Shown here piece after piece: positions 7,509-45,610 of a DNA stretch of 64,000 bases (position 1 is its first letter; each line of letters starts with the position of its first letter). Below the pieces are notes generated by a model. It worked only from the letters and a program-made list of their open reading frames with translations, was not told the DNA's origin and ran no database searches. Origin of the DNA: Chiloscyllium plagiosum (lineage: Eukaryota). The translations under genes were made by a program, and so were the position numbers. The stretch lies in assembly GCF_004010195.1 (NCBI RefSeq), contig NC_057739.1:35172664-35236663 (forward strand), written 5' to 3'.

Positions 7509-7732
7509 CAACCTGATCAGAGGTGTTTATTATACACCTCTGGAGCAGGCGAGACATCAACCCTGGTGGTCTCCTGGCCCAGAGGTAAGAACACAATACT
7601 GTCACAATAGCCCCAAAGATATTTTACAATCAACCTGTTCAGAGATATTATGGCACAAATCTGGAACAGGTGGGACTTGAATCCATATCTTCTGGTGCAG
7701 AGGTAAGAAGACTCCCACCGAGCAGCAAGGCC
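7509..7732 (-). repeat. Tandem dimer (~122 bp unit) of a short tRNA-derived repeat
   Basis: Two units start CAACCTG.TCAGAG at 7509 and 7631; B-box-like GGATTCAAGTCC on minus strand; related copy at 21884-21955. Confidence 0.6.
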
Positions 7733-8086
7733 TTACAACCATACGGCCTTAACATAGAATTCACTAGCTTCCAAGTCTCCCCACCCCCCACATCATCCCA
7801 GGTCCAGCCCTCACTCTCCACCCTGCCCCTTGATTTGATCTAACCTGTGTATTTTCATTCCCTCATATCCGCTCCATGCTTCCTAGTGACCAATCGTAAT
7901 TGCCATCTACCTGCATCCACTTGTCACCATCCCACCTGCCTTTCCCCAAGCCCACCTCCCCCATTTATTTCTCAGCCCTCAGCCCCATTCCCCCTTCCCC
8001 TTCCCCTCCCCAGTCCTGATGAAAGGTCCCAACCTGAAACATTGCCTCCTCTGCTGCTTGACCTGCTGTCCTTTTTCCAGCTCCAT
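7730..8086 (+). mobile_element. Penelope-like element 3' end (GIY-YIG C-terminus, pyrimidine-rich UTR, hammerhead terminus; family A)
   Basis: LQPYGLNIEFTSF matches the PLE C-terminus also seen at 17721-17954; followed by CTGATGA-AAGGTCCCAACCT-GAAAC. Confidence 0.75.
8012..8045 (+). ncRNA. Hammerhead ribozyme-like core (decayed)
   Basis: CTGATGA at 8016-8022, AGG/CCT stem II, GAAAC at 8036-8040. Confidence 0.55.
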
Positions 8087-9331
8087 GCTGCCTGTGGAAG
8101 TTCTCCACATCCTCTGGGAAAAGAGGTTTCATCTGAGTGCTCTGATGGATTTTAGTGAATATCTTTTACTTATGGGTTGCTATTTCCTCTGCAGCCTTTA
8201 GGATCTTCACCACCTATTCTGTCATCAAGTCAACAACCAGAGAGAACCCCTACCCCTTTCCTTTTTCAGTATTTTCTGATAGTTACAACAAAACCAGAAC
8301 CGAGGAGTTGTATTACGTTTCTTGAACACCTTTTTACAGTACTATCTAACCCTTTCATAATATCCATGTTTTTGTGTATCCAATCCTAGGTTTTATTTTG
8401 TTACTTTACTGGTTTTGATTATTTAATTTTGGTTGTCTTTGACTTGCAAACCAGTTTCAACTTCGCTAATCTTTATTTTCCCTTTGCCATCCTCTGCTCC
8501 ATAATTTATGTCCTCCGTATATTTATGTTTTATTTGTCTATATTGTAGTATTTTTATTAGGGTATACTTCTTAGATTTTATTCCCTGTTTTATATGTTTC
8601 CCACTATTGTTCTATTTCTTTCAAAAAAGTCTATTCCGTTGAGGGCCAAATATGGAGCCATATTCCTCAAAGACCAGGAGCAGTTGTTGGATAAGGCTGT
8701 AGATAATAGGAACTGATAAGAGGCTTTACAATAGGATGTCATGTAAATTGAATACACTGAGTCAGTCAGGTCTGCAAAGAGTTAAAACTGAAGGAAATCA
8801 GTAACTGCTGATCCTACCAAATAAGGCATGTATTTAACCGAAACATTCAGGATTGGTCATGTGCATGAATAATTCCAAATAAGGTATATACTTGACGCAG
8901 AGTCTTGTGTATAAAGATCCTGAATCCTTTGTTCAGCAACACTTCGAAGATTCACATTCTGAGAAGGTATCCTATGTCAGGAGGCATGGTGAAAACGTCA
9001 AGCAGAGTTTCAGCCTGACCAGCTGCCAACTGTTCTGGATAATAACTTTTGGGTTTAGTTACAGAAATCAGGGTAGTGAAAGACATTGATTGAGACATCT
9101 TTAGCAATTAAAAATGTCTGTTACCAACTTAAGTACTTAATTAATTGCATTTCTCAGAGCACTGTGTCTCCACTGTATCCTCGTCTATGTATGTACTGTT
9201 ATCACTCAGAGATGGGCAACAGAGTTAACACCTGCTGGACAGAGCTCTTCAAGGACTTCCTCAACCAAGATGCAGCCTTCAATGCAAGTGCTCTCAACAC
9301 CATCTTGCAATGTACTATCTGTCACCATCTC

Positions 9332-9524
9332 TAATGTGGAGGTGTCAGTGTTGGACTGGGGTGGACAAAGTTAAAAATCACACAACACCAGGTTACAGTC
9401 CAACAGGTTTATTTGGAAGTACTAGCTTTCGAATGAAGCTACCCGATGAAGGAGCAGCAGTTTGAAAGCTCGTACTTCCAAATAAACCTGTTGGACTATA
9501 ACTTGGTGTTGTGATTTTTAATTT
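9332..9524. mobile_element. Fold-back mini-element derived from a PLE terminus (family C), 12-bp TSD
   Basis: Arms of about 65 bp in inverted orientation; TGTCACCATCTC at 9320-9331 and 9525-9536; right arm matches 34490-34575. Confidence 0.85.
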
Positions 9525-9791
9525 TGTCACCATCTCAGTACACCTGCAACCTACTATGAGATTGATAAAGCCATCAAACAGCTGCAAAACAACAAAGCCC
9601 TTGGTGTGGATGGAATCCCCACAGAAGTACTAAAATACAGCAGAGAGGCACTCTTGACACATTTATAATTTAATTGCCCTCCTCTGGAATGAGGAGAGCA
9701 CGACTGAAGATCTCGGACGCTGTAATTGTGATCATCTTCAAGAAAGGAGACAGGTCTGAGTGTGGAAATTACAGAAGAATTTCCCTATTGT

Positions 9792-11548
9792 CCAGGTAGT
9801 AAGGACAAGCCACGTCACTATAGACCAGTGAGCCTGACGTCGGTGGTGGGCAAATTGTTGGAGAGAATCCCGAGGGACGGGATGTACATGAATTTGGAAA
9901 GGCAAGGACTGATTAGGAATAGTCAACATGGCTTTGTGCGTGGGAAATCATGTCACACAAACTTGATTGATTTTTTTGAAGAAATAGCAAAGAGGATTGA
10001 TGAGGGCAGAGCGGTAGATGTGATCTATATGGACTTCAGTCAGGCGTTTAACAAGGTTGCCCATGGGAAACTGATCAGCAAGGTTAGACCTCACAGAATA
10101 CAGGGAGAACTAGCCACTTGGATGCAGAACTGGCTCAAAGGTAGAAGACAGAGGGTGATGGTGAAGGGTTGTTTTTCAGACTGGAGGCCTGTGACCAATA
10201 GAGTGCCACAAGGATCGGTGCTGGGATTTCTACTTTTTGTCATTTACATAAATGATTTCGATGTGAGCATAAGAGGTACATTTAGTTAGTTTGCAGATGA
10301 CACCAAAATTGGAGGGGTAATGGACAGTGAAGAAGGTTACCTCGGATTGCAACAGGATCTTGATCAGATGGGTCAGTGGGCCGAGAAGTGGCAGATGGAG
10401 TTTAATTCAGACAAAATGGGAGATGCTGCATTTTGGGAAACCAAATCTTAGCAGGACTTATACACTTAATGGTAAGGTCCTAGGGAGTCTTGCTGAACAA
10501 AGAGACTTTGGAGTGCAGGTTCATAGCTCCTTGAAAGTGGAGTCGCAAGTAGATAGGATAGTGAAGAAGGCATTTGGTATGCTTTCCTCTATTGGTCAGA
10601 GTATTGAGTACAGGAGTGGGACATGTTGAAGCTGTACAGGACATTGGTAAGGCCACTGTTGGAATATTGTGTGCAATTCTGGTCTTCCTATCAGAAAGAT
10701 GTTGTGAAACTTGAAAGGGTTCAGAAAAGATTTACAAGGATGTTGCCAGGGTTGGAGGATTTGAGCTACGGGGAGAGGCTGGGGCTGTTTCCCTGGAGTG
10801 TCAGAGGCGGAGGGATGACCTTTATAGAGGTTTACAAAATTGAGGGGCATAGATAGGGAAAAGACTTTGCCTATTTATCCTGGGATGGGGGAGTCCAGAA
10901 ATACAGGACATAGGTTTAGGGTGAGAGGGGAAAGATATAAAAGGGACCTAAGGGGCAACTTTTTCACGCAGGAAGTGGTGGAGGCTGGTACAATTCCAAC
11001 ATTTAAAAGGCATCTGGATGGATATATGAATAGGAAGGGTTTGGAGTCATAGAGATGTACAGCATGTAAACAGTCCCTTCGGTCCAACCCGTCCATGCCG
11101 ACCAGATATCCCAACCCAATCTAATCCCACCTGCCAGCACCCGGCCCATATCCCTCCCAACCCTTCCTATTCATATACCCATCCAGCTGCCTTTTAAATG
11201 TTGCAATTGTACCAGCCTCCATCACATCCTCTGACAGCTCATTCCATACACGTACCACCCTCTGAAAAAGTTGCCCCTTAGGTCTCTTTTATATCTTTCC
11301 CCTCTCACCCTAAACCTATGCCCTCTAGTTGTGGACTCCCCGATCCCAGGGAAAAGACTTTGTCTATTTATCCTATCCATGCCCCTCATAATTTTGTAAA
11401 CCTCTATAAGGTCACCCCTCAGCCTCCGATGCTCCAGGGAAAAAAGGGCTGGGTGTTGGCAGGTGGGACTAGATTGGGTTGGGATATCTTGTCGGCATGG
11501 ACAGGTTGGACCAAAGGGTCTGTTTCCATGCTGTACATCTCTGATTCT
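9792..11548 (+). mobile_element. HER1/CR1 LINE, 5'-truncated, inserted in the RTE element
   Basis: ORF 9762-10289 has YRPVSLTSVVGK, QHGF, IYMDFSQAFNKV, VPQGSVLG; 3' tail CTGTACATCTCTGATTCT. Confidence 0.93.
11044..11446 (-). mobile_element. HER1 3' fragment nested antisense in the 3' UTR of the host HER1
   Basis: GAGTCATAGAGATGTACAGC tail; minus ORF LFSLEHRRLRGDLIEVYKIMRG. Confidence 0.9.
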
Positions 11549-14229: not shown

Positions 14230-16419
14230 TTCTTGGTTACAGAAGCAATCCAGGTTTTATTGGAAAGAAAGTGCAGGACTTTGCACCTGTAAGCAATAGC
14301 TAGATCCTTTAATTTGCTGTGGGGTAACCTGTTAGTCTATATATCTCATTGGGAAGTCTTAGGAAGTTATGTAAATTATCTCTCAAACTGTCAACATAAT
14401 TTCAGAATAGAATATAATTGGGGCGCTAGAGACTAGCTATTTAGCATTACTAACTGGGTACAAGACCTATATGATGCATGATACCATGAAGACGAGCTTT
14501 CAGGGGGTCTGGGCCTATAGCAAGACATGAACACCTTATTCACTTTGTCCACCTTGTTCCACACACTCCATGCAGAAGTATCTCCTACGCAGTTAGACTG
14601 AGGTGATAATAATTCACGAAGTTCTGTATTGTTGTGGAAATCACTCCAACCCATTTGTTCGGATGCATTTACCCAAATAGATTTGGATCAAGGTCTCTCC
14701 ACTACCTGTTTCACTGTTTTGAGACCTATAAAATACTCCCTATAATTGTGATCGTGCCTTTCTTGTTTCTGAATTCTAATGGACTGGATTCTTTCTTGTT
14801 CTCTTCCTCCAAAGACACTTGCTCTTTCGAACAGTACAATGTCTTCCTAATTTTTTCATGTGCTGTCTTTCTTTCTCTTGTGAGAAATTTTCTCCATTCC
14901 AATTGGGTGGCATAGATGCATCTGTGTGAACTGACTGAGCATGTAAATTGATATCAAATCTGACTTTGAGCATTTCCAGAAATTATGGGAAATAAATAAA
15001 GAGCTTTTGTGTAAGTTTCAGAAAAGGAAATCATTGGATTTTCACTTGGATCCTGCACTTGAAACACTTCTGTATTTCCAGTGAGACAAGTGATTATTGG
15101 CATGTCTCATAGTAAAGTGTGTGGCCTTCTGCACAAAATCAATCTGCTATACTTTGCCCTTTTGATCATAAAAATGTCAAAATTTGAAATTATCTTCATT
15201 TGGGGATTGCCTTGGCTTTGGAATGATTCCTGGGAAAAATATATTCATCAAAAATTTGAAGTCGCAATCCCTTGGAGATATAAATCCCAAGTTTATTCAT
15301 GGAACAATTGATGTCTGTCTTTGATAGATATTTTCCTGTGTGCTGAATGTGTGAGATAACTTTGCTGTAATTTACTGTCTGAAGTAGCATCAAGCCTGAA
15401 GAAGCTCCCCGGAGCCAACTGTTATCTATTTAATGATCATCAGACTCATTGCTTAGCTTTAGCTTTGTTCCTTTTCTTAATTACTAAATTAGAAAGCACA
15501 AATGGAGAATCACACTTTTTAAGATGCTTCTTAGTAAGCTTTTCTCTTGCACTGGAAATGCACTGGAAGTGAGCTTTTGAAAGATTGCTGGAGTAATGCT
15601 TTCTCTCTGACATACATTTTGAAAGCTGTGATCGATTACAATCGTATGGCAAGTGTTCATTTGAAAATGTTTCTTTCCTCTATTTCCTGCCATTGGGATG
15701 TAATATCCGTGTAAAGTTCATCAGGGTCAAGCTACAGTCTCATTTTAACATTCCAGTAATTTGCAGCTGTAAAAACTGAGACACAAAAAGCTCTCATCCG
15801 TTTTGGTCAATGGCAGCTTTTAGAATGCCCCAAGAATTGTACAATGACATCAGTTCTATTAGTACTTGTTGCTATGGGGTACCTCTATGACAATACCTTG
15901 TGCAGTTTTGTTAAATGTATTTTCAAAAAAGGAGGGTGTCCTCTGTGAGGTTAAACATTGATATTGACTTTCTGTTTGGCACCAAACCACTTGAAGCGAT
16001 CTTATTGCATGTTATTCAAGGATAAGTAAGTGAAACATTTGATCCAAACTCAGCTGTCCTCTAGCTATGCTAAATGTCTGACGTTGTGAAAGATTGACTG
16101 AGTGCTAGATTTCGGTCTGCCACAAATGTGGTGAATTTCCAGCATTTATACAGCTGAAGAGCTGAGCAAATTGCAAATCCTGAAAGGAAAGATCAGAAAA
16201 TTCTGAAAATACTCTGCAGGTCAGACAGCATTTGTGGAAGGAGAGATGGGGTAATACTTCATGTTGCTGTCCATTTAATTTAAAAAAAAAAGCATGATAG
16301 ACAAAGTCCTCATTGATGCAAGCAAGTCTTCTTAAGCAGTACCTTATGATCATAAGTTGACTTGTTTGCTCTGCGTTTGATGGGTTCTGAGATTGCTTAC
16401 AAGTCTTGTATACGATTAA

Positions 16420-16835
16420 AACCTGAAACAACTGTGGATCCTGTAAATCAGAAACAAAACCAGAAATTGCTGGAAAAGCTGTGTGGAGAGAAAGCAGTGT
16501 TAATGTTTCAGGTCGAGTGACCCTTCTTCAGAACTGATGGTAGCTATTAAAATGTTTGAGAGTTTGTACTGCAGTAGATAGGGTAGATATGTGTGGATAG
16601 AGCCCAAAGAGAGAAGAACAGTTAGAATGACAAGGGCGTGGATAATGATTTGGCTAGGAGAGTGAATATCTGTTAGTGGGGACTGTTAGTGGCTAACAAT
16701 GGCTTGTTTGTAATAGTAGACTGTGATAACAAGGCCTGGTGTGTGGGGATTGGGTTAAGGACATGGGAGAGTTCAAGCTCTAAAGTTGTTGAACTTGATG
16801 TGGAGTCCAGAAGTCTGCATAATCCCCAAGTGAAG
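16420..16835 (-). mobile_element. Penelope-like element 3' end with hammerhead terminus (family B)
   Basis: Minus strand LGIMQTSGLHIKFNNF C-terminus (16780-16830), UTR, then CTGAAGA-AGGGTCACTCGACCT-GAAAC. Confidence 0.75.
16500..16535 (-). ncRNA. Hammerhead ribozyme-like core
   Basis: Minus: GTT-CTGAAGA-AGGGTCACTCGACCT-GAAA-CATT-AAC; stem I GTT/AAC. Confidence 0.6.
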
Positions 16836-17746: not shown

Positions 17747-17990
17747 GTGGGAAGGAAAATGGACAGGTCAAGAGGGCAGTTTTGAGTTGGAGGGTTGGAC
17801 CTGGGATGGGGTGGGGGGGGGTGGTGGAGATTTGGAAACGAGTGAAGTCGAAGTTGATGCTGTGTGGTTGAAGGGTCCCTAGGCAAAAGATGAGGCATTC
17901 TTTCTCCAGTTGTTGGGTGACTTTTGATTTGTCGGTGGAAGGGGGCCAGGACATGCTTGTCCTTGGGGAGTGGGAGGGGGAGTTGAAGTG
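17747..17990 (-). mobile_element. Penelope-like GIY-YIG C-terminal fragment
   Basis: ORF 17721-17954 QLEKECLIFCLGTLQPHSINFDFTRF. Confidence 0.8.
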
Positions 17991-18097
17991 GTACTTGCCA
18001 CTTGTTGGCCAAGCCTGGATATTGTCCAGATCTTACTGCATTTGAATATGGATTGTCAGGAATGGTACTGAAAGTTGTGTAGTCATTGAACATCCCA

Positions 18098-18200
18098 GTT
18101 CTGAGGAACGGTCATTGGACCTGAAACTTTAACTGATTTTTTATTTCTCTACATGTGCTGCCAGGTTTGCTGAGCTTTTCCAGAAATTTAAACTTTTGTT
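18098..18200 (+). mobile_element. Single-arm hammerhead-bearing PLE terminus (family B)
   Basis: GTT-CTGAGGA-ACGGTCATTGGACCT-GAAA-CTTT-AAC followed by TCTCTACATGTGCTGCCAG..TGCTGAGCTTTTCCAG. Confidence 0.65.
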
Positions 18201-23244: not shown

Positions 23245-23336
23245 TGAAAATGTGTTGCTGAAAAAGCGCAGCAGGTCAGGCAGCATCCAAGGAGCAGGAG
23301 AATCGACGTTTCGGGCATGAGCCCTTCTTCAGGAAT
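23245..23336 (-). mobile_element. Single-arm hammerhead mini-element (family A), 11-bp TSD
   Basis: AATTTCCAACC at 23234-23244 and 23334-23344. Confidence 0.85.
23300..23336 (-). ncRNA. Minimal hammerhead ribozyme with intact core
   Basis: Minus: CTGAAGA-A-GGGC-TCAT-GCCC-GAAA-CGTC (GUC triplet, ACGT palindromic stem III); stem I weak. Confidence 0.7.
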
Positions 23337-26006: not shown

Positions 26007-26310
26007 TAGTCATAGAATTGTACAGCATGGAAACCATCATTTGGTCCAATCAGTTCATAATACCAAGCTAAATTAGTCCCACCTGCCTGATCCTGGCCAA
26101 TATATCTCCAAACCTTTCCTGTTCATGCATTTATACAAATATATTTTAAATGTTATAACTGTGTCCGCATCCTCCACTTCCTCAAAGTTCATTCCACATG
26201 TGAACCACTATGTTTTAAAAAAAATCCCCCATGTCCTTTTAAAATTTCTCTCCTCTCACCTTAAAAAATGTGCCCCCTAGTCTTGAGGTTCCCCATCCTG
26301 TGGCAAAGAC
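26007..26310 (-). mobile_element. HER1-like CR1 3' fragment
   Basis: AGTCATAGAATTGTACAGCATGGAAAC tail and 3' UTR. Confidence 0.85.
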
Positions 26311-26331
26311 CCGCACCAAAGACATCCATAC

Positions 26332-26952
26332 CTGTTGTGGTTCTGTTCGCCGAGCTGGAAGTTTTTGTTGCAAACGTTTCGTCCCCTGGCTAGGCGACAT
26401 CATCAGTACTTGGGAGCCTCCTGCGAAGCGCTTCTTTGATGTTTCCTCCGGTGTTTATAATGGTCTGTCCCTGCCGCTTCCGGTTGTCAGTTTCAGCTGT
26501 CCGTAGTGGTTGGTATATTGGGTCCAGGTTGATGTGTTTGTTGATGGAGTTTGTGGATGAATGCCATGCCTCTAGGAATTCCCTGGCTGTTCTCTGTCTG
26601 GCTTGCCCTATGATAGTAGTGTTGTCCCAGTCGAATTCATGTTGCTTGTTGTCTGCATGTGTGGCTACTAAGGATAGCTGGTCGTGTCGTTTTGTGGCTA
26701 GTTGATGTTCATGTATGCGGATTGTTAGCTGTCTTCCTGTTTGTCCTATATAGTGTTTAGTGCAGTCCTTGCATGGTATTTTGTACACTACATTCGTCTT
26801 GCTCATGTTGGGTATCCGGTCCTTCGCTCTGGTGAGTTGTTGTCTGAGCGTGGCTGTTGGTTTGTGTGCCGTTATGAGTCCTAGGGGTCGTAGTAGTCTG
26901 GCAGTCAGTTCCGAGATGCTCCTGATGTATGGTAGTGTGGCTAGTCCTTTTT
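26332..26952 (-). mobile_element. Penelope (Poseidon-type) 3' fragment with open GIY-YIG domain and hammerhead pLTR
   Basis: ORF 26390-26806 NVVYKIPCKDCTKHYIGQTGRQLTIRIHEH...AREFLEAWHS. Confidence 0.93.
26368..26410 (-). ncRNA. Minimal hammerhead ribozyme
   Basis: Minus: GTA-CTGATGA-T-GTCGCCT-AGCC-AGGGGAC-GAAA-CGTT-TGC; all core nucleotides present, stem I GTA/TGC. Confidence 0.8.
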
Positions 26953-27890
26953 AACCACTCTGTAGTCTTGTGTTTTCTCTCCTAACACTACTGCAGTTGA
27001 GTTTCTTGTCTCAGTGGCCAGATTTAATTGACATCGGCTTGAAAACATGTTAATGACTGGGTCCAACTAAATATTTCTTTTAAAAGTATATTCGGAGTGT
27101 TTATTTTTGAATTAAGATGAAACTTCTGTTGAAGCTAAATGATTGTTAATACAAACAGCATCTGATGTCAACTGTTAAAATATATATTTTAGAAAATGTA
27201 ATTGTGTACTGTGGTAACATTACAGGGAAATGAAATTGATGTTCTTTTGACTATTCAGGACCCTGCAATTGTGTTAATTTCCAGTAACAAATATGAGCAA
27301 TATAGCACCAACATTAAAAGTCTAGTAAAAGGCTAAAAGCTTAAATAGTAACTATTGTTGTTTGTGCTGTTGCTTATTGAAAGTGAACTTCAATGCTGAA
27401 AGTACTCTGACGATAGTCTTCTGTTATCCTATTGAAGAACACTATTTCACATTGTGAAACATCTTTTGTGCCCTTTCTGATTTAAGAAATATTGTTTAAC
27501 TTTTTCTCTAATGTACTCTGTTTTACCCATATTCATAGTCTCTCGACTGAAGATATTGTTCATTGCCTATTGGTACAACATCCATATGATATCATAAAGT
27601 GTGAACCAAAACAAGTGAATGGGTACAGACCACCTGATTTGCAGAAATCATCTCCGTTGAATCTGATCATTTTTGCATACTATTAACACTTGTCTACCTT
27701 CATCAAAGGCCATAAAATGATCAGAAACGCTGATGATTTCCATTCCCCCAGTCTTTATTGGGATCAAATTGTTGAACCCACTTTCAACACTAGTACTGCT
27801 TTTACTAGATTCAGCATGAAACCTAGCTCAGCTAATTACTACTTCGGATGTCAGGAAGAACCAAGAAACATTTTAGTGCACTTATTTTAT

Positions 27891-28114
27891 TCTGGAAGAA
27901 AGTGAGGACTGCAGGTGCTGGAGATCAGAATCGAGAGTTTGGTGCTGGAAAAAGCACAGCAGGTCAGACAGCAGCCGAGGTGCAGGAGAAATCATGTTTT
28001 GGGCATAAATTCTTCATCAAGAATCCCTGATGAAGGGCTTATGCCTGAATCGTCAATTCTCCTGCTCCTTGGATGCTGCCTGACCTGCTGTGCTTTTCCA
28101 GCACCCCCTACACA
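27891..28114. mobile_element. Fold-back mini-element (family A) with back-to-back hammerhead remnants, imperfect 13-bp TSD
   Basis: Arms 27941-28020 and 28027-28105 are inverted; GCACTTATTTTAT 27878-27890 vs GCAGTTATTTTAT 28115-28127. Confidence 0.85.
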
Positions 28115-28794
28115 GCAGTTATTTTATCATGCCTCCCTTTGCTAAAACTGCTTTGTTGGCCCTGTAAATACAGCTTGTTGCCTGTAGCCAGAGAATAATG
28201 GCAGCAGCCTTCTCAATCTTAAGATAGAACCATGCCTCTGGCAATTTTGGTCTGGGGAATGAAGAGGAGGTATTATGTGCCAAGAAGAGCGATTGATGCT
28301 ATCTCACTTACAGTATTGCTGCTGGCAATGGAAGCAGTATACTGTTGAGTTGTCTTAAATTCCATTTAGTTATCTACTTTTGGTTAAGGTAAATACGCTT
28401 AGCTTTCAAAACCATAAATTCTTTAAATTTTTATTCAGGAAAAATTTGGTTGTCTCCCTTTCAATATTCTACTGATCAAACTAGAACTGAGAAACACTAA
28501 TTTGGACAAAGATGTTTTGATAAGGTTGAAACATAATGAGAAAGTATGATATTTTTAATAGTGTCCAGCTGAAGAATATAAACAATGTTTCTATCATTTT
28601 TAATGTGTATGTTGACTATCCTGTTCCATTAAAGTGGCAATGTTTCAATGGTTGTTTTAATGCTCTTTCAAATATTGATTTACTAAATGTCTTAAAACAG
28701 AAATGTTGGAGACAGTCCATAGGTTAGTCAGCATCATTGAAAATAAAAGAGAACATTTCTTCAACTCAAATGTAAGCTATGAATGCTGTCATGA

Positions 28795-29010
28795 ATAAAA
28801 ACAAAATGCTGTAGATGCTGGAAAGCTGAAACAGAGAATGCTGAAGGAACTCAGCAGTTCTGGTAATGTCAGTAGAGAGGGAAACCGTTAACATTTCAAG
28901 TCTGGCATGACGACTTCTGAAGAGTTATACTGGACTCAAGATTTTAACTCTTTCTCTATCCACAGGTGCTGTCACACTGCGCATTTTTCTCCACCATTCT
29001 GTGTTTGTTA
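28795..29010. mobile_element. Older fold-back mini-element (family B)
   Basis: ACAGAGAATGCTGAAGGAACTCAGCAG left arm vs CTGCGCATTTTTCTCCACCATTCTGTGT right arm; central CTGAAGA remnant. Confidence 0.65.
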
Positions 29011-30062
29011 CAGAGTCATGACATATCTATCTTAATGGATGTTGATGGACTTGCAATATGTTTATTTCTATGCTTGCTGTTTTTGCTACATTTTAAAATA
29101 AGCTTCACATTTGCCTTAAAAGGTTTCACTTAGACATGGAATAGTTTTCAGCCAGTCAGAACAATAAGCGACCAATGTCTTATTGGAATAGAAAAGGCAA
29201 AACCAATTGTTAATCATGATGTTTTTGTGATGTTTTCAATGAAAACATCATGAAGATATAGTGGACCTGTGCCTCACTACCCACTTCACCTTCAACAACA
29301 TAATCTACAAACAAACCAACGGCACACCCATGGGATCTCCGCTATCAGGATTCTTAGCAGAAGCGGTAATGCAAAGACTAGAACAAACAGCCCTACCAAC
29401 CATCAAACCAAACATCTGGGTCCACTATGTAGATGACCCCTTTGTCATCACAAAACAAAACAAGATAGAAGAGACATTTAACATCATCAACAACACCCTC
29501 ACAGGCATAAAGTTCACCAAGGAGAAAGAAACCGACAACAAACTCGCACTTCTGGACGTCACAGTCGAAAGAAAGGACAACGGAGAACTACAAAACTGAG
29601 TATACAGAAAACCGACAAACACTGACCAAATACTTTAACTACACCAGCAACCATCCCAACACACACAAACGAAGCTGTATCAGAACACTATTCCAATGAG
29701 CCACGGACACACTGCAGCACAGATGAACTTCGGAAAACAGAGGAGAACCACCTATACAACGTATTCAAGAAGAACGGATACTCAAAAAATACAGTGTGCA
29801 GATTCCTCAGGAACAAACCACGACAAGCAGACCAAACATAGCCAGAAACCCTAACCACCTTACCATACATCAAAGAAGTTTCAGAAATGACAGCCAGACT
29901 ACTAAGACCCCTCGGAATCCTAGTAGCACACAAACCCACCAACACTCTCAAACAAAAACTAACAAACTTAAAAGACCCAGTACATCTCATGGACAAAACC
30001 AACGTCATCTAGAAAATTCCATGCAAGGACTGCCACAAACACTACGTAGGACAAACAGGAAG

Positions 30063-30450
30063 NNNNNNNNNNNNNNNNNNNNNNNNNNNNNNNNNNNNNN
30101 NNNNNNNNNNNNNNNNNNNNNNNNNNNNNNNNNNNNNNNNNNNNNNNNNNNNNNNNNNNNNNNNNNNNNNNNNNNNNNNNNNNNNNNNNNNNNNNNNNNN
30201 NNNNNNNNNNNNNNNNNNNNNNNNNNNNNNNNNNNNNNNNNNNNNNNNNNNNNNNNNNNNNNNNNNNNNNNNNNNNNNNNNNNNNNNNNNNNNNNNNNNN
30301 NNNNNNNNNNNNNNNNNNNNNNNNNNNNNNNNNNNNNNNNNNNNNNNNNNNNNNNNNNNNNNNNNNNNNNNNNNNNNNNNNNNNNNNNNNNNNNNNNNNN
30401 NNNNNNNNNNNNNNNNNNNNNNNNNNNNNNNNNNNNNNNNNNNNNNNNNN
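30063..30450. other. Assembly gap (388 N)
   Basis: Run of n. Confidence 0.99.
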
Positions 30451-31630: not shown

Positions 31631-33679
31631 CTATGCTCTAAACTGTGGAAACATCAGTCGAAATGTATGCTTTGATCATTACGTTGTGAACTCTTTAAAA
31701 AGTAGACTTGAAGGTTGTTATGATGCCCCTTCAGCTGAATATCTCAGTCCAGGGTTTGTGGTGGTAATGTGGCTAGATTCAAAATCCAAAGAGCTCGGTT
31801 GGTGATTTGGGCATAGGTTGAAATCCCACTGTGGTTTTTAAAAAAATTTTTGTTTCAGTACTTAGCTGGTTTGATATTTCTTTTTGCCTGTTGGCTTCCA
31901 CAGACAGTATTTAACTGAATGTAAAATTGTTGGGTTTTGTTATGACCTGCATCAATAGTGCAATTTTCCCTAGGTTTCAAGTTCAGCTGCCTAGCACACA
32001 GATGAGTATGGCTTTTAGATTAAGAACTCCCCCTACTGATGTCTTGGCAAATTAATTTCATTGCGTGTTTCATGGTGCAATTACACAATAAATTTTCAAG
32101 AAAATGTTGCACTTTATGTAAATTGTTATAGAAGATTTAAGTGCTAATAGCAGCTATATATTAATTATACAGCTGGCCAAATATGGTTTGCGTGACTTAA
32201 CATGTACAACTATGTTGGACAAGCATATTGTCAGTTTTCCATGGGTATCCTCAACTTATTTGAAATATATTTCTCATAATGAGACACACAAGTCCCAATT
32301 TATGTATTAGAGAGTGACACCCATGGTTATTCTTGTGAAAATCTGGGCACTGATAAAGTGATGTGATGCTGCAGTAACCTTTATCCAGCCCTCATGTACT
32401 GACAGGCTCAGCTAGTGATTATCTGTTAACTGGAGTTGTAGAGTTTGCAAAGTTAAATTGAACAGTGATCAAACCTGAAATTGCAGTTGAAAAATAAGAC
32501 CTTCATTCACTTTGTTTCTTCTGTTTCATCTGTCCTTTGTTCATGTTATTAATGTTTTCATAAAGCAGTAGTGTAGTTCAGACTTAATAATGGAGAGGAT
32601 TAATTTCAAATGTGCCAGAATTGGGTAACAAATGCCACTCTAGTTATCACTGTAAGGCAATTGCGTGAAGGAATTTTTCTGACTCTTTCACCAGCTGTAG
32701 ACATTTTGAAGTTTTCCTGGATTTTTTTTCCCACAGTCAGAAAGTGTGGTTCACAGTCACTGGAGGATTAAGCTAGATTAGCAAAGCTCTCTACTGCCTG
32801 AGTATACTTTTGTAAGTATTGATGTTGTCCTTTCAAATAAATGCAAGCTGCTGACCCTTGCATATTGTATGACCGTGCTGTCCGTGTGCATAAAGTCAAT
32901 TGTTTGAATTTCAAATGTTGTATATTTATACAGAGAATGAGAAGTGCCTCTGGTTCTGTGTCCTTGCTAAAGGTTAGCACAATGCATTCTGAAATAGAGA
33001 GCTCACTTTCTATAAATCGTTTTACCAAGGTTGTTTTGTATACTTTTGTGTAGACCTTGTAAAGAATAACATCCTAGTGCTCTGTACAATGAATGGACAG
33101 AGACCTGCTATTTTTAACTCACTTAAACATAAAATTATTAAGAATTGGTTTAAATACTTACCTTTCCCAAAAAGAAGAAATGTAGGAAAGAAGATTTGCA
33201 TTTTGTCTCCGTATTACCTGCTTCTTGCATTATGATCAATTATTGGACCTATTCTGTGGCGAAGTTGAATTAATGTTGTTGGTAATAGTCTTCAGTTCCT
33301 TAATGGGCGCCACCTTGGCAAAAAAAACTGCGTGTTTGTGCTGAATGTTGTGGATTTATCTATTTGGCTACTCTTTGCATAAAGATTTTTTTTTAACTGT
33401 AAGTATGTGACAAAATTACTCTCTCCATCATTTTGCAGAAAATAAAGTTGCAAGAGATGCAACAAATATTATAACTATTGTTGAGGAATATATTGTCTCT
33501 ATATGATTATAAATAATGCTGGTAAAGATTGCCACACCAATTGTGGTGTTCTGTCAAGTTATCTTCTCTGAAAAGTTGATGATGTTACTCTCTTCTTGGA
33601 TGCTGCTTTACCTGCTGAATGCTTCAAACAAGTTTTTAAAATTTCAGATCTCCAATATCTCTGCTGTCTTGCTTTGAGT

Positions 33680-33935
33680 GTATAGGTCTGTAGGAGTGTG
33701 TGTGTAGTGCAGTGGAGTCACCTGTAGTGTCCCGGTTGAGGCCATCCCCATGAATACTGAGCTTGGCTATCAGCCTCTGCTCGGCCACTTTGCATTGTTG
33801 TCTGTCCCAAAGGTTGCCTTGGAGGATGGTCACCTGAAGGTCCGAGGTCCAGTGTCCCAGACGGCTGAAGTGTTCCCCAACTGGGAGGAACACTCCTGTC
33901 TGTTGATTGTTGTGCGGGGTCCATTCATCTGTTGC
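33680..33935 (-). mobile_element. Penelope-like (Neptune-type) GIY-YIG C-terminus, inverted copy
   Basis: Minus ORF PVGEHFS...DLQVTILQG...AEQRLIAKL...DGLNRD. Confidence 0.85.
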
Positions 33936-33950
33936 AGTGACAATGGAAAT

Positions 33951-34600
33951 GGATGAATGGACACCGCAAAACAAACAATAGACAGGAGTGTTCCCTCCTA
34001 GTTTGGGAACACTTCAGTGATCCAGGACATTTGACCTCAGACCTTCGGGTGACCTACCTCCAAGATGGACTTCAGGACAAACAACACAAAGTGGCCAAGC
34101 AGAGGCTGATAGCCAAGTTCAGTATTCATGGGGATGGCCTCACCTGGGACCTTGGGTTTTATTTTGCTCAAACTGCATGAATCAATGTACGATTCTCTAA
34201 ATCTCTTTTTTAGATTAGAATCAGTCTGAACATTGGGTCACAGCCTCACAGGGAACCTCGCACCTTTAATGCATTATCTGGGCCAACATGGCACCAATGT
34301 TAAACTTCACTTGAGAACGTAACTTTAAGAAAGTTCTGGAATTTATGTGAGTGAACTGAAACCAACATACCCATTCTAAAAGATGAGAAACTTAACAAAC
34401 AATCCAGGTCTTTTTCAATATATAATTTCAATTACATCACACTGTAAACTTTTGCTATAAATTTTGTCCTACGATCTATAAATTTTGTCCTGATGAAGGA
34501 GCAGCACTTTGAAAGCTCGTGCTTTCAAATAAACCTGTTGGACTATAACCTGGTGTTGTGTGATTTTTAACTTTGTGCCAACACTGGCACCTGCAAATCA
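33951..34600 (+). mobile_element. Penelope-like (Neptune-type) 3' end with hammerhead terminus (family C)
   Basis: MNGHR...VWEHFS...DLRVTYLQ...KQRLIAKF...DGLTWDLGF, UTR, then CTGATGAAGGAGCAGCACTTTGAAAGCTC. Confidence 0.85.
34488..34522 (+). ncRNA. Minimal hammerhead ribozyme core
   Basis: CTGATGA(34490)-A-GGAG-CAGCA-CTTT-GAAA-GCTC-GTG; AGCT palindromic stem III; the upstream stem I position is occupied by a CTATAAATTTTGTCCT duplication. Confidence 0.65.
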
Positions 34601-34759: not shown

Positions 34760-35125
34760 TGTCGAGTATGGTGCTGGAAAAGCACAGCAGGTCAGGCAGC
34801 ATCTGAGGAGTAGGAGAGTCGATGTTTTGGGCAAAAGCCCTTCATCAGCAATGGGGCTGTGAGACAAGGGGTGGTGAGATAAATGGGAGGAGCGGTGGGT
34901 AAGGTATCAGTGTGTGTTAGGTAGGTGGAAGTGGGGGGTAATGGTGATAGGTCAGAGAGGAGGGTGGAGCAGTTAGGTGGAAAGATGGACCTGTAGGACT
35001 GGTCCCTGAGGGCGGTACCAAGTTTAAAGGTTAGATCTGGGATCAGAAGGGGGGATGGGAAATGAAGAAACTGATGAAATCCACATTGATGCCATGGGGT
35101 TAGAGGGTCCTGAAGTGGAAGGGCA
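34760..35125 (-). mobile_element. Penelope-like 3' end with hammerhead terminus (family A)
   Basis: Minus CTGATGA-AGGGCTTTTGCCC-AAAACATC at 34820-34848; UTR homologous to 7760-8010; C-terminal remnant HGINVDFISF. Confidence 0.8.
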
Positions 35126-35599
35126 GAGTTTTCAAACTGCCTGAGCAAGGCTAGATCAGGTGACTACATCCACTAGAAATGTAGACTGAGTGAATAGCGA
35201 CTTAGATTTGTGTGGCATTCCGTGCACAATATGGTTTATTGCAGATGTGTAAAATATAGTCTGATTTCAGGTCTAGTAAACTTATCGCCAGTTGTAAGGT
35301 TTATAAAATGAAGGCCAAGTATAAATATTATCATAAATGTTTGTAGAATTAAATTCAGGTAGGGCATTCGGAAGTGAGGAATGTATAACCTGTAGTACCT
35401 ATAGTATGTCTGAAGTCACAGATGTTCGTATTCTTGAATTTCTGTGAGGCTGAGTGTTTCTTGGGTAGTAAGTTCAGAGAGGTAGTCATGTGGAGGCAGG
35501 AAGGATACGTAACTGATTGGAATGCAGGAGGCCCGTGAGGTCCTGCTCACGGACTGGGTTTCTGTTTTGCTTACTGGTGACAGCTTAGATTTCTCTGCC

Positions 35600-39927: not shown

Positions 39928-40057
39928 TGCGAAAGTGAGGACTGCAGATGCTGGAGATAGAGTCAAGATTAGAATGGTGCTAGAAATGCACAGCAGGTTA
40001 GGCAGCATCCGAGGAGCAGGAAATCAACATTTTTGGCAGGAGGCCTTCATCAGGAAT
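39928..40057 (-). mobile_element. Single-arm hammerhead mini-element (family A), 14-bp TSD
   Basis: GGAATCTATTATAA at 39914-39927 and 40053-40066; ends CTTCATCAGGAAT. Confidence 0.85.
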
Positions 40058-42343: not shown

Positions 42344-42482
42344 CCAAGATTAGAATAGTGCTGGAAAAGCACAGCAGGTTTTGCCCGAACCGTTGATTTT
42401 TTCCCTCCTCGGATGCTGCCTGACCTGCTGTGCTTTTCCAGCACTACTCTAATCTCCAGTATCTGCAGTACCCACTTTTGCC
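42344..42482. mobile_element. Asymmetric fold-back mini-element (family A), 11-bp TSD
   Basis: AGATTAGAATAGTGCTGGAAAAGCACAGCAGGT vs ACCTGCTGTGCTTTTCCAGCACTACTCTAATCT; TAATTACATAA at 42333-42343 and 42483-42493. Confidence 0.88.
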
Positions 42483-45444: not shown

Positions 45445-45610
45445 AGCACAAATTGCTGAAGAAACTCTAGCTGGTCTGGCAGCAGCTGTGGAGAGAAAAC
45501 AGGGCAAATGTTTCAATTCAGTGACCTTCAGAGCTAGAATTAGCTAAGAAAAGGTGGTAATTATGCTGATAGGGGTTTGGCGAAAGAGAATGCATATGGG
45601 TGGAGACAGA
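45445..45610 (-). mobile_element. PLE terminus fragment (family B)
   Basis: Colinear with 16460-16610. Confidence 0.6.

What the first reader, a model, noticed from the sequence alone, without database searches (positions are those of the whole stretch)
27891..28114. TSD-flanked ~220-bp fold-back element with back-to-back hammerhead cores: candidate non-autonomous ribozyme-hairpin retroposon
Seen: two ~80-bp inverted arms meet at CATCAA-GAATCC-CTGATG, so each strand reads (C/T)TGATGA-stem II-GAAA-like away from the centre. There is no ORF, and a near-perfect 13-bp TSD flanks it. The arm is the same sequence that terminates the coding PLE fragments at 7730-8086 and 34760-35125. Established: PLE pseudo-LTRs carry minimal hammerheads whose palindromic stem III favours dimeric folding, and PLE insertions often have an inverted terminal segment. 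Inference: this is a short unit mobilised by PLE RT/GIY-YIG whose transcript from either strand would be a long hairpin with a ribozyme core, a MITE-looking but retrotransposed, retrozyme-like class. I do not know of it being described as a system in sharks. Both cores in this copy carry substitutions.
Basis: partly seen in the sequence, partly recalled or inferred. Interest (0 to 1): 0.75.

Follow-up and report, generated by a model that had tools for sequence, protein, structure and literature searches.

The report
Head-to-head Penelope ends, dead ribozymes
This 224-base hairpin-shaped insert is two end pieces of a common Penelope-like jumping gene joined head to head, a layout already described for these elements and likely produced during insertion; both of its hammerhead ribozyme motifs are mutated and are predicted to be buried in the hairpin, so it is ordinary rather than a new kind of mobile RNA.

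Summary
The structure is real. Inverted arms are 81% complementary, the TSD matches 12 of 13 bases (1 of 1,487 controls scored as well), and the arm is the 3' terminal, hammerhead-bearing module of a shark RT + GIY-YIG Penelope-like element (PLE).

It is not a symmetric unit: one arm has a ~50-nt 'tail' that the other lacks. This matches the published PLE insertion layout: head-to-head inverted pLTR, palindromic junction, one-sided tail, variable TSD.

The same arm occurs in this window as solo copies, as an off-centre fold-back and on ORF-bearing fragments. Two fold-backs of another PLE family pivot elsewhere, one inside coding sequence. Genome-wide, the symmetric centre recurs in two species but at only about 3.5-5.5% of neighbouring arm depth.

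Both cores here are broken. Any transcript through the element carries one sense core, predicted to be sequestered in the hairpin (P(open) 1e-8 or less). The insertion is old and shared by two species.

What remains of interest: many copies start at the same ATT just upstream of the hammerhead. This scan noted the same pattern earlier on other pieces of this genome.

The parts
27878..27890 (+). Left target-site duplication (13 bp, AT-rich)
   Evidence: 12 of 13 match to right copy; 1 of 1,487 controls as good
27891..27940 (-). PLE 'tail': 3' extension present on this arm only; the element's 3' end is at about 27891-27897
   Evidence: shared with 39929 and 42379 copies; loose ends pile at 27897 (845/492/928 contigs, 763 reads)
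27941..28023 (-). Left arm: PLE terminal module (pLTR), hammerhead end facing the centre
27993..28020 (-). Left minimal hammerhead, dead: C3->U, G12->A, helix II broken, G at the cleavage position
   Evidence: fails the descriptor
28020..28027 (.). Palindromic junction; axis between 28023 and 28024, the two arms overlap by the dinucleotide AT; family letters G28020 and T28025 make it perfect
   Evidence: table 3
28024..28105 (+). Right arm: inverted, tail-less copy of the same terminal module
28027..28054 (+). Right minimal hammerhead: CUGAUGA and helix II kept, A15.1->U, helix I broken next to the core
   Evidence: family reads show A at 28050 (98%), G at 28055 (71%), C at 28046 (62%) in run X1
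28106..28114 (+). 9 nt between arm homology and TSD: decayed arm end or filler
   Evidence: origin not settled
28115..28127 (+). Right target-site duplication
23245..23336 (-). Sister insertion: solo tail-less arm with an intact minimal hammerhead, 11-bp perfect TSD whose first three bases overlap the arm's ATT start
39929..40057 (-). Sister insertion: solo arm with tail, 14-16-bp TSD overlapping the ATT start
42344..42482 (.). Sister insertion: off-centre fold-back of the same arm (short tail-less arm plus long tailed arm), CUGAUGA box absent, 11-bp perfect TSD
34760..35135 (-). 5'-truncated PLE: endonuclease C-terminus, pyrimidine-rich UTR, same arm without tail
7730..8086 (+). 5'-truncated PLE of a related subfamily: endonuclease C-terminus, UTR, variant arm
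   Evidence: E 4.9e-7 to P0005

Best explanation
The insert is two copies of the hammerhead-bearing 3' end module of a shark Penelope-like retroelement (RT + C-terminal GIY-YIG, likely Neptune clade) joined head to head, and it was likely laid down in one retrotransposition event as the shortest form of the normal PLE insertion, not copied from a palindromic master. Shown here: anatomy, TSD, link of the arm to the RT-EN ORF, variable pivots, dead cores, age. Inferred from the lizard PLE biochemistry (PMC11167929): the endonuclease would nick both strands of an AT-rich site 13 nt apart; each 3'-OH would prime reverse transcription at one of two internal start sites about 40-50 nt apart, giving one tailed and one tail-less arm; both cDNAs would end just upstream of the hammerhead at the ATT and be joined through a 2-nt AT overlap; repair then gives the TSD. 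The hammerheads are passengers: they are not predicted to fold in the hairpin transcript and have since decayed.
For: Arm tied to a PLE ORF: window fragment 17826-17993 hits P0003 (E 1.2e-4), whose relatives are shark proteins P0005 and P0008; P0005 hits RVT_1 and GIY-YIG, P0008 GIY-YIG only. They hit the window fragments at 7730, 17826 and 35037-35135, and P0008's read-through C-terminus lines up by eye with the arm's translation. One-sided tail, head-to-head orientation, junction palindrome and 8-10-bp TSDs are described in PMC3846280 and PMC8557442. Two RT start sites, both-strand cleavage and extension, ATT preference and use of uncleaved RNA are described in PMC11167929. In this window the 6 insertions of this arm that I analysed are 1 symmetric fold-back, 1 off-centre fold-back, 2 solos and 2 ORF-bearing fragments; TSDs of 13, 11, 11 and 14-16 bp were found for the 4 short ones and none for the 2 long ones. 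A second PLE family makes the same shape at 9332-9522 (14-bp TSD with 1 mismatch) and at about 33729-34600 with the pivot in endonuclease-coding sequence. In three DNA runs, depth across the symmetric centre is 3.5-5.5% of depth at 28031, and other pivots appear (27929->28026, 28026->28060, and 27922/27939/27944/27973->28026-7). P(core unpaired) is 1.9e-11 and 5.1e-9 for this copy and 2.7e-20 for an idealised palindrome, against 3.3e-3 for the same arm alone.
Against: 5' ends are not random: 3 of 6 insertions (4 of 7 arms that reach the hammerhead region) start at the same ATT, which plain random truncation does not predict. The symmetric centre recurs in both species (87-111 contigs counted at 28020, cap 128). 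The mechanism is borrowed from a Poseidon-clade element in vitro, and this family looks Neptune-like. Depth sums of Logan contigs are not copy numbers, and 393 joints were not shown.
Confidence: 0.75

Rival explanations
1. Variant of the joining step within the best explanation: one cDNA is made from the tail to the ATT, folds back and self-primes, and the copied arm is resolved by the endonuclease at the tail-less site (self-priming model of Arkhipova et al. 2013). The confidence is for this step, given a PLE by-product.
For: Perfect junction palindrome in the family reads. PMC3846280 Discussion reads junction palindromes as self-priming. The two arms of the 42344 copy are 97% complementary over 33 nt.
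Against: PAc extends both strands from the same internal start sites in vitro, which gives tail and tail-less ends without further steps. Fold-backs with extra letters at the pivot (9434-9460, 33930-33951) fit end-joining better.
Confidence: 0.35
2. The ~90-130-nt module is its own short RNA that starts just upstream of the hammerhead and is mobilised in trans as a SINE-like or retrozyme-like parasite of the PLE; fold-backs are still made anew at insertion.
For: Shared ATT start in 3 of 6 insertions. Loose ends before 28026 have AT-rich, low-agreement (0.35-0.37) upstream letters in three DNA runs. Joints 27898->28026, which I read as head-to-tail dimers of the module, occur in 14, 5 and 6 contigs. 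Li et al. (bioRxiv 10.64898/2026.07.22.740005) derive non-LTR retrozymes from pLTRs and find them in the one chondrichthyan sampled.
Against: Any non-palindromic copy is clipped at 28026 on this reference, so that pile-up is partly built in. The loose letters keep a C-rich trace for several bases, as expected if ends spread into the UTR. In both solos the TSD overlaps the ATT, so microhomology or endonuclease preference for ATT can fix the boundary without a short RNA. The boundary is about 31 nt upstream of the predicted cleavage site, so it is not a ribozyme product.
Confidence: 0.15
3. One reading: the whole ~220-bp palindrome is a non-autonomous master that is transcribed and re-inserted as a unit, with a working ribozyme on either strand.
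For: The symmetric centre recurs in two species. A joint 28102->27897 (12, 0 and 13 contigs; shorter side only 20-35 nt) could be a tandem of the whole unit.
Against: Minority class (3.5-5.5% of adjacent depth). Variable pivots. The tail on one arm only is explained by PLE priming. One sense core per strand, so no intramolecular dimer, and the core is predicted to be buried even in a transcript prefix ending 8 nt past the cleavage site (2.7e-20).
Confidence: 0.07
4. A MITE moved by a DNA transposase that recognises the inverted arms.
For: Short, non-coding, inverted arms, TSD.
Against: The inverted repeats are not terminal: 50 nt of tail on one side and 9 nt on the other lie outside them. TSD length varies 11-16 bp. 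The arm is the 3' end of an RT-GIY-YIG element. Solo arms have their own TSDs.
Confidence: 0.02

Closest known systems
Insertion unit of EN+ Penelope-like elements: pLTR, adjacent inverted 5'-truncated copy, one-sided 30-40-bp tail (Arkhipova et al. 2013, PMC3846280; Craig et al. 2021, PMC8557442)
   Same: Head-to-head inverted terminal module, palindrome at the junction, tail on one arm only, variable TSD, C-terminal GIY-YIG parent.
   Different: Here no ORF lies between the arms (shortest possible form); the tail is about 45-50 nt; the junction sits at the upstream edge of the hammerhead.
Poseidon element PAc of Anolis (Frangieh et al. 2024, PMC11167929)
   Same: Two 3' end classes that fit two internal RT start sites, AT-rich target, ATT at the junction, hammerhead retained uncleaved in the inserts.
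   Different: PAc is Penelope/Poseidon clade. The shark parent has a Cys-rich RT-EN linker (seen by eye in P0005), a mark of Neptune/Nematis per PMC8557442; no tree was built.
[quoted passage not shown]
   Same: Type I core, extra nucleotide before helix II, palindromic minimal helix III, mostly single motifs on truncated PLEs; pairs on opposite strands 100-700 bp apart already reported.
   Different: Here the two cores abut (6 nt apart); helix II is 4 bp; helix I of this family is weak (2 pairs next to the core).
Non-LTR retrozymes (Cervera and de la Pena 2020, PMC7229834; Li, Clavereau, Pollet 2026, bioRxiv 10.64898/2026.07.22.740005)
   Same: Short, non-coding, type I hammerhead, derived from PLE pLTRs.
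   Different: Retrozymes are head-to-tail tandems with two sense cores that release a monomer; this insert is head-to-head with one buried sense core per strand.

Membership tests
EN+ Penelope-like element insertion | Sequence is the terminal repeat of an element encoding RT plus GIY-YIG endonuclease | tested here: met
   the arm follows the GIY-YIG C-terminus and UTR in window fragments and in shark protein P0008; P0005 has RVT_1 (below the curated cut-off) and GIY-YIG
EN+ Penelope-like element insertion | Inverted 5'-truncated copy adjacent head to head, palindrome at junction | tested here: met
EN+ Penelope-like element insertion | 30-40-bp tail on one end only | tested here: met
   about 45-50 nt on the left arm only, slightly longer than published
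EN+ Penelope-like element insertion | Variable-length TSD in AT-rich DNA | tested here: met
   13, 11, 11, 14-16 bp for 4 short insertions; none found for 3 longer fragments
EN+ Penelope-like element insertion | Hammerhead motif in the pLTR | tested here: met
   family majority and solo 23245 copy keep the core; descriptor finds 5 motifs in the window vs mean 0.13, max 2 in 100 shuffles
Neptune clade | Zn-finger-like linker between RT and EN, and RT phylogeny | tested here: inconclusive
   Cys-rich linker seen by eye in P0005/P0008; no reference set or tree
Non-LTR retrozyme | Head-to-tail tandem with two complete hammerheads on one strand | tested here: not met
   arms are inverted; neither core passes the descriptor
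Non-LTR retrozyme | Self-cleavage and circular monomer RNA | not testable with these tools
   needs bench assay and small or circular RNA data; the polyA single-cell run cannot show it
MITE (TIR DNA transposon) | Terminal inverted repeats and fixed TSD | tested here: not met
Rfam hammerhead families | Covariance-model match | tested here: not met
   no hammerhead family among 9 hits at E<=10 on 27000-29000 or 5 hits at E<=5 on the whole window; the intact solo copy is missed too, so this test is insensitive to minimal motifs
Dfam/Repbase shark PLE families | Match to a curated consensus | not testable with these tools

The most novel reading that the evidence does not exclude
The hammerhead-headed end module of this shark PLE has become its own short mobile RNA that starts at a fixed point just upstream of the ribozyme, and a subset of the perfectly symmetric fold-backs (and rare head-to-tail dimers) re-transpose as units: a palindromic, MITE-looking, PLE-dependent retroposon lineage shared by at least two shark species.
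Probability: 0.1. Interest if true: 0.55.

Novelty: new member of a known kind. Interest (0 to 1): 0.2.

Why it matters
As a single locus it matters little: it is an old, decayed insertion. As a class, these stubs are a natural record of PLE integration, whose later steps are still untested (PMC11167929). A census of young copies could decide between two-ended priming and self-priming, and could explain why so many 5' ends stop just upstream of the hammerhead. They are also easy to mis-annotate as MITEs, and they seed the genome with long potential dsRNA hairpins. If the novel case held, it would be a palindromic retroposon class parasitic on PLEs.

Tried and rejected
No whole genome is held for this window, so the genome-wide BLAST census could not be run.

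Rfam: no hammerhead match; uninformative for minimal motifs.

Collection scans: 0 hits for a 34-nt arm pattern in metagenome contigs; 14 hits for a 21-nt pattern, all limited to 17-32 nt of similarity and treated as chance; 0 in viral contigs.

The search for homologous proteins on the decayed 56-aa fragment found nothing. Pfam did not recognise the three short endonuclease tails. P0002 and P0004 are repetitive proteins and were dropped as spurious.

No RNA holder was listed for the stretch, which is no evidence either way. In the polyA single-cell run X21 (about 2 in 100 of the run read) 3,713 of 12,955,460 records were laid, 40 of them at 99% likeness or more, with no depth over the unique flanks and no start or end pile-up. 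That library cannot show cleavage ends or small RNAs.

No empty site was seen among the 15 joints shown (393 not shown).

Rejected: reading the pile-up of loose ends at 28026 as proof of a fixed unit (partly built into the reference); reading summed contig depth as copy number; hammerhead cleavage as the source of the 5' boundary (the site is about 31 nt downstream).

Seven weaker nhmmer hits (18095, 16202, 45450, 16493, 14013, 28838, 54737) and the 33568-33678 copy were left out of the boundary count as older, partial or from other subfamilies.

Host-gene context was not determined.

Full report
OBSERVATION. The repeat finder gives arms 27950-28019 / 28028-28097 (70 nt, 81%) and a 13-nt direct repeat 27878-27890 / 28115-28127 with one mismatch. 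Either strand folds into one long hairpin (z -12.3 and -11.1; 0 of 200 shuffles as good). The same TSD search on 1,487 random intervals reached that score once. The element is not symmetric: the left arm (minus strand) continues about 50 nt beyond the mirrored part, to 27891, and this extension is shared with copies at 39929 and 42379. Both arms point outward with their 3' ends and meet at their hammerhead ends.

WHAT THE ARM IS. A decayed 56-codon fragment at 17826-17993 found P0003 (E 1.2e-4; the 2 other hits were repetitive and were dropped). P0003 found 15 relatives among 50 candidates, two of them named as whale shark and zebra shark proteins. P0005 hits RVT_1 (E 9e-5, below the curated cut-off) and GIY-YIG (E 9e-5, above it); P0008 hits GIY-YIG only. 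These proteins align to the window at 7730-7828, 17826-17990 and 35037-35135. P0008 reads through its 3' UTR and ends in residues that line up by eye with the arm's translation. So the arm is the 3' terminal module (pLTR) of an RT + C-terminal GIY-YIG Penelope-like element of a shark-type genome. A Cys-rich RT-EN linker in P0005 suggests the Neptune clade (criterion from PMC8557442); I built no tree.

SISTER COPIES. Six insertions of this arm were analysed: the symmetric fold-back; a solo tail-less arm at 23245 (11-bp TSD); a solo tailed arm at 39929 (14-16-bp TSD); an off-centre fold-back at 42344-42482 without the CUGAUGA box (11-bp TSD); and two fragments that run on into UTR and endonuclease codons (7730, 34760; no TSD found). 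A whole-window search gave 13 inverted pairs. They include a fold-back of a second PLE family at about 9332-9522 with a one-sided extension and a 14-bp TSD, and a large one at about 33729-34600 that pivots inside endonuclease-coding sequence. Fold-backs are therefore a habit of PLE insertion here, at many pivots. Against a purely random picture, 3 of the 6 insertions (4 of 7 arms reaching the hammerhead region) begin at the same ATT four bases upstream of the core; in both solos that ATT overlaps the TSD.

GENOME-WIDE SIGNAL. No assembly was available, so I laid 4 of 24 listed runs on 27700-28300 at 80% likeness. The three contig runs laid 88,916, 60,711 and 78,075 records, so the family is very abundant; the tool warns that depth is no copy number and that some events were not counted. 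Family letters at the centre are G at 28020 (88-90%) and T at 28025 (90-91%), making a perfect palindrome with its axis between 28023 and 28024. The symmetric centre thus recurs, in organism A and in organism B. Depth at 28020 is only 4.8, 3.5 and 5.5% of depth at 28031, and part of it may be solo arms laid on the left side. Other pivots are seen (27929->28026, 28026->28060; with extra letters 27922, 27939, 27944 and 27973 to 28026-7). Joints 27898->28026 (14, 5, 6 contigs), which I read as head-to-tail dimers, and 28102->27897 (12, 0, 13 contigs) are rare. 393 joints were not shown. In organism B two contigs run from each flank into the element (27700-27919 and 28086-28300; 14 substitutions in 435 bases, 3.2%), so the insertion predates the split of A and B; no single piece spans it. 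The arms differ at 16 of 83 columns, 10 of them transitions, as expected for neutral decay of an old copy.

RIBOZYME. The family majority restores a minimal type I hammerhead (A at 28050 98%, G at 28055 71%, C at 28046 62% in X1), and the solo at 23245 is intact. My descriptor finds 5 motifs in the window against a mean of 0.13 in 100 shuffles; neither arm of this element is among them. The left core has C3->U, G12->A, a broken helix II and G at the cleavage position. The right has A15.1->U and a broken helix I. The nucleotide numbering and the roles of these positions are from my own knowledge. Because the cores are on opposite strands, any transcript has one sense core, downstream of its own antisense copy. 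The predicted chance that the core is unpaired is 1.9e-11 and 5.1e-9 for this copy, and 2.7e-20 for an idealised palindrome, even in a prefix ending 8 nt past the cleavage site, against 3.3e-3 for the same arm alone. These are equilibrium predictions, not assays. The intramolecular dimer that minimal hammerheads need (PMC4209133) is not available in this geometry. Rfam matched no hammerhead family, even on the intact solo. The RNA run showed family copies on both strands, no reads on the unique flanks and no pile-up of ends, but it is a polyA single-cell library read at 2% and cannot test cleavage.

MECHANISM. Most likely a single PLE integration primed from both nicks. In vitro the lizard element PAc cuts and extends both strands, prefers ATT, starts reverse transcription at two internal sites whose distance is the tail, and uses uncleaved RNA (PMC11167929). 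That accounts for two outward-facing 3' ends, a tail on one arm, retained hammerheads and a 13-bp TSD. The two cDNAs would stop near the ATT and join through a 2-nt overlap. Self-priming at the palindrome (PMC3846280) is the alternative for the joining step and is not excluded. Why ends cluster at the ATT is open: an RNA start, endonuclease preference or microhomology with AT-rich targets. It is not the ribozyme cut, which lies about 31 nt downstream.

COMPARISON AND NOVELTY. PMC3846280 describes inverted pLTRs, palindromes at the inverted junction, an optional 31-bp tail on one of them, 8-10-bp TSDs and solo pLTRs. PMC8557442 generalises this to EN+ PLEs. PMC4209133 reports dual minimal hammerheads 100-700 bp apart on opposite strands. 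The Li et al. preprint derives tandem retrozymes from pLTRs and includes one chondrichthyan. Seven literature searches returned no paper whose listing describes this shark family or a palindromic PLE-dependent retroposon class. The library lacks most subscription papers, and Dfam/Repbase could not be searched.

PAPERS SEEN. bioRxiv 10.64898/2026.07.22.740005, parts 1-3 of 5. PMC11167929, parts 1-2 of 4. PMC4209133, parts 1-2 of 4. PMC3846280, passages and Discussion. Passages only of PMC8557442, PMC8969392, PMC7229834, PMC6155905 and PMC12910113. No supplements were read; those of PMC4209133 and the preprint may list shark motifs.

EARLIER NOTES. The scan's notes on other pieces of this genome reached the same reading. 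My reading was stated before seeing them, and they are not counted as support.

VERDICT. A real, well-spotted structure, but an instance of the known PLE insertion layout, with dead passenger ribozymes. Interest 0.2. The most novel reading not excluded has probability about 0.1 and would merit about 0.55.

Noticed in passing
window 9318-9536: Fold-back of a second hammerhead-bearing PLE family: arms 9352-9433 / 9461-9542, one-sided extension, extra letters at the pivot, 14-bp TSD with 1 mismatch.
   Followed up: partly
window 33680-34600: Large fold-back whose pivot (33929/33952) lies in GIY-YIG-coding sequence; the right arm runs on to a hammerhead motif at 34490 that passes the descriptor; no TSD found.
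   Followed up: partly
window 26310-26950 (-): 3' fragment of a third PLE family: open 186-codon GIY-YIG stretch (Pfam E 0.036) followed by a hammerhead-like motif near 26370-26410 seen by eye, about 1 kb from the finding. An RT fragment similar to PLE proteins lies at 29258-29796, next to the N gap 30063-30450.
   Followed up: partly
window 10650-11545: Nested inverted repeats at 86-92% (10788-11147 vs 11149-11542) made of what looks like a LINE 3' end (family label CR1-like is recalled, not from a call); no convincing TSD.
   Followed up: no
window 23245-23336 (-): The only arm of this subfamily in the window with an intact core and helix II; helix I has just 2 pairs next to the core, so the family's ribozyme may be weak even when intact.
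   Followed up: partly
joints 27898->28026 and 28102->27897: Rare junctions that look like head-to-tail dimers of the ~130-nt module (retrozyme-like) and tail-to-tail or tandem whole units; the shorter sides are only 20-46 nt.
   Followed up: no
run X21, joints 27929->28103 and 27929->28105: Strong strand bias in polyA RNA (184 vs 7 and 124 vs 2 reads) for linear copies of the arm, suggesting one or a few well-expressed transcripts carry them.
   Followed up: no
window 16200-16540, 18095-18186, 28838-28917, 45450-45515, 33568-33678: Older or different-subfamily copies of related PLE terminal modules; one at 16531 (-) passes the hammerhead descriptor.
   Followed up: no
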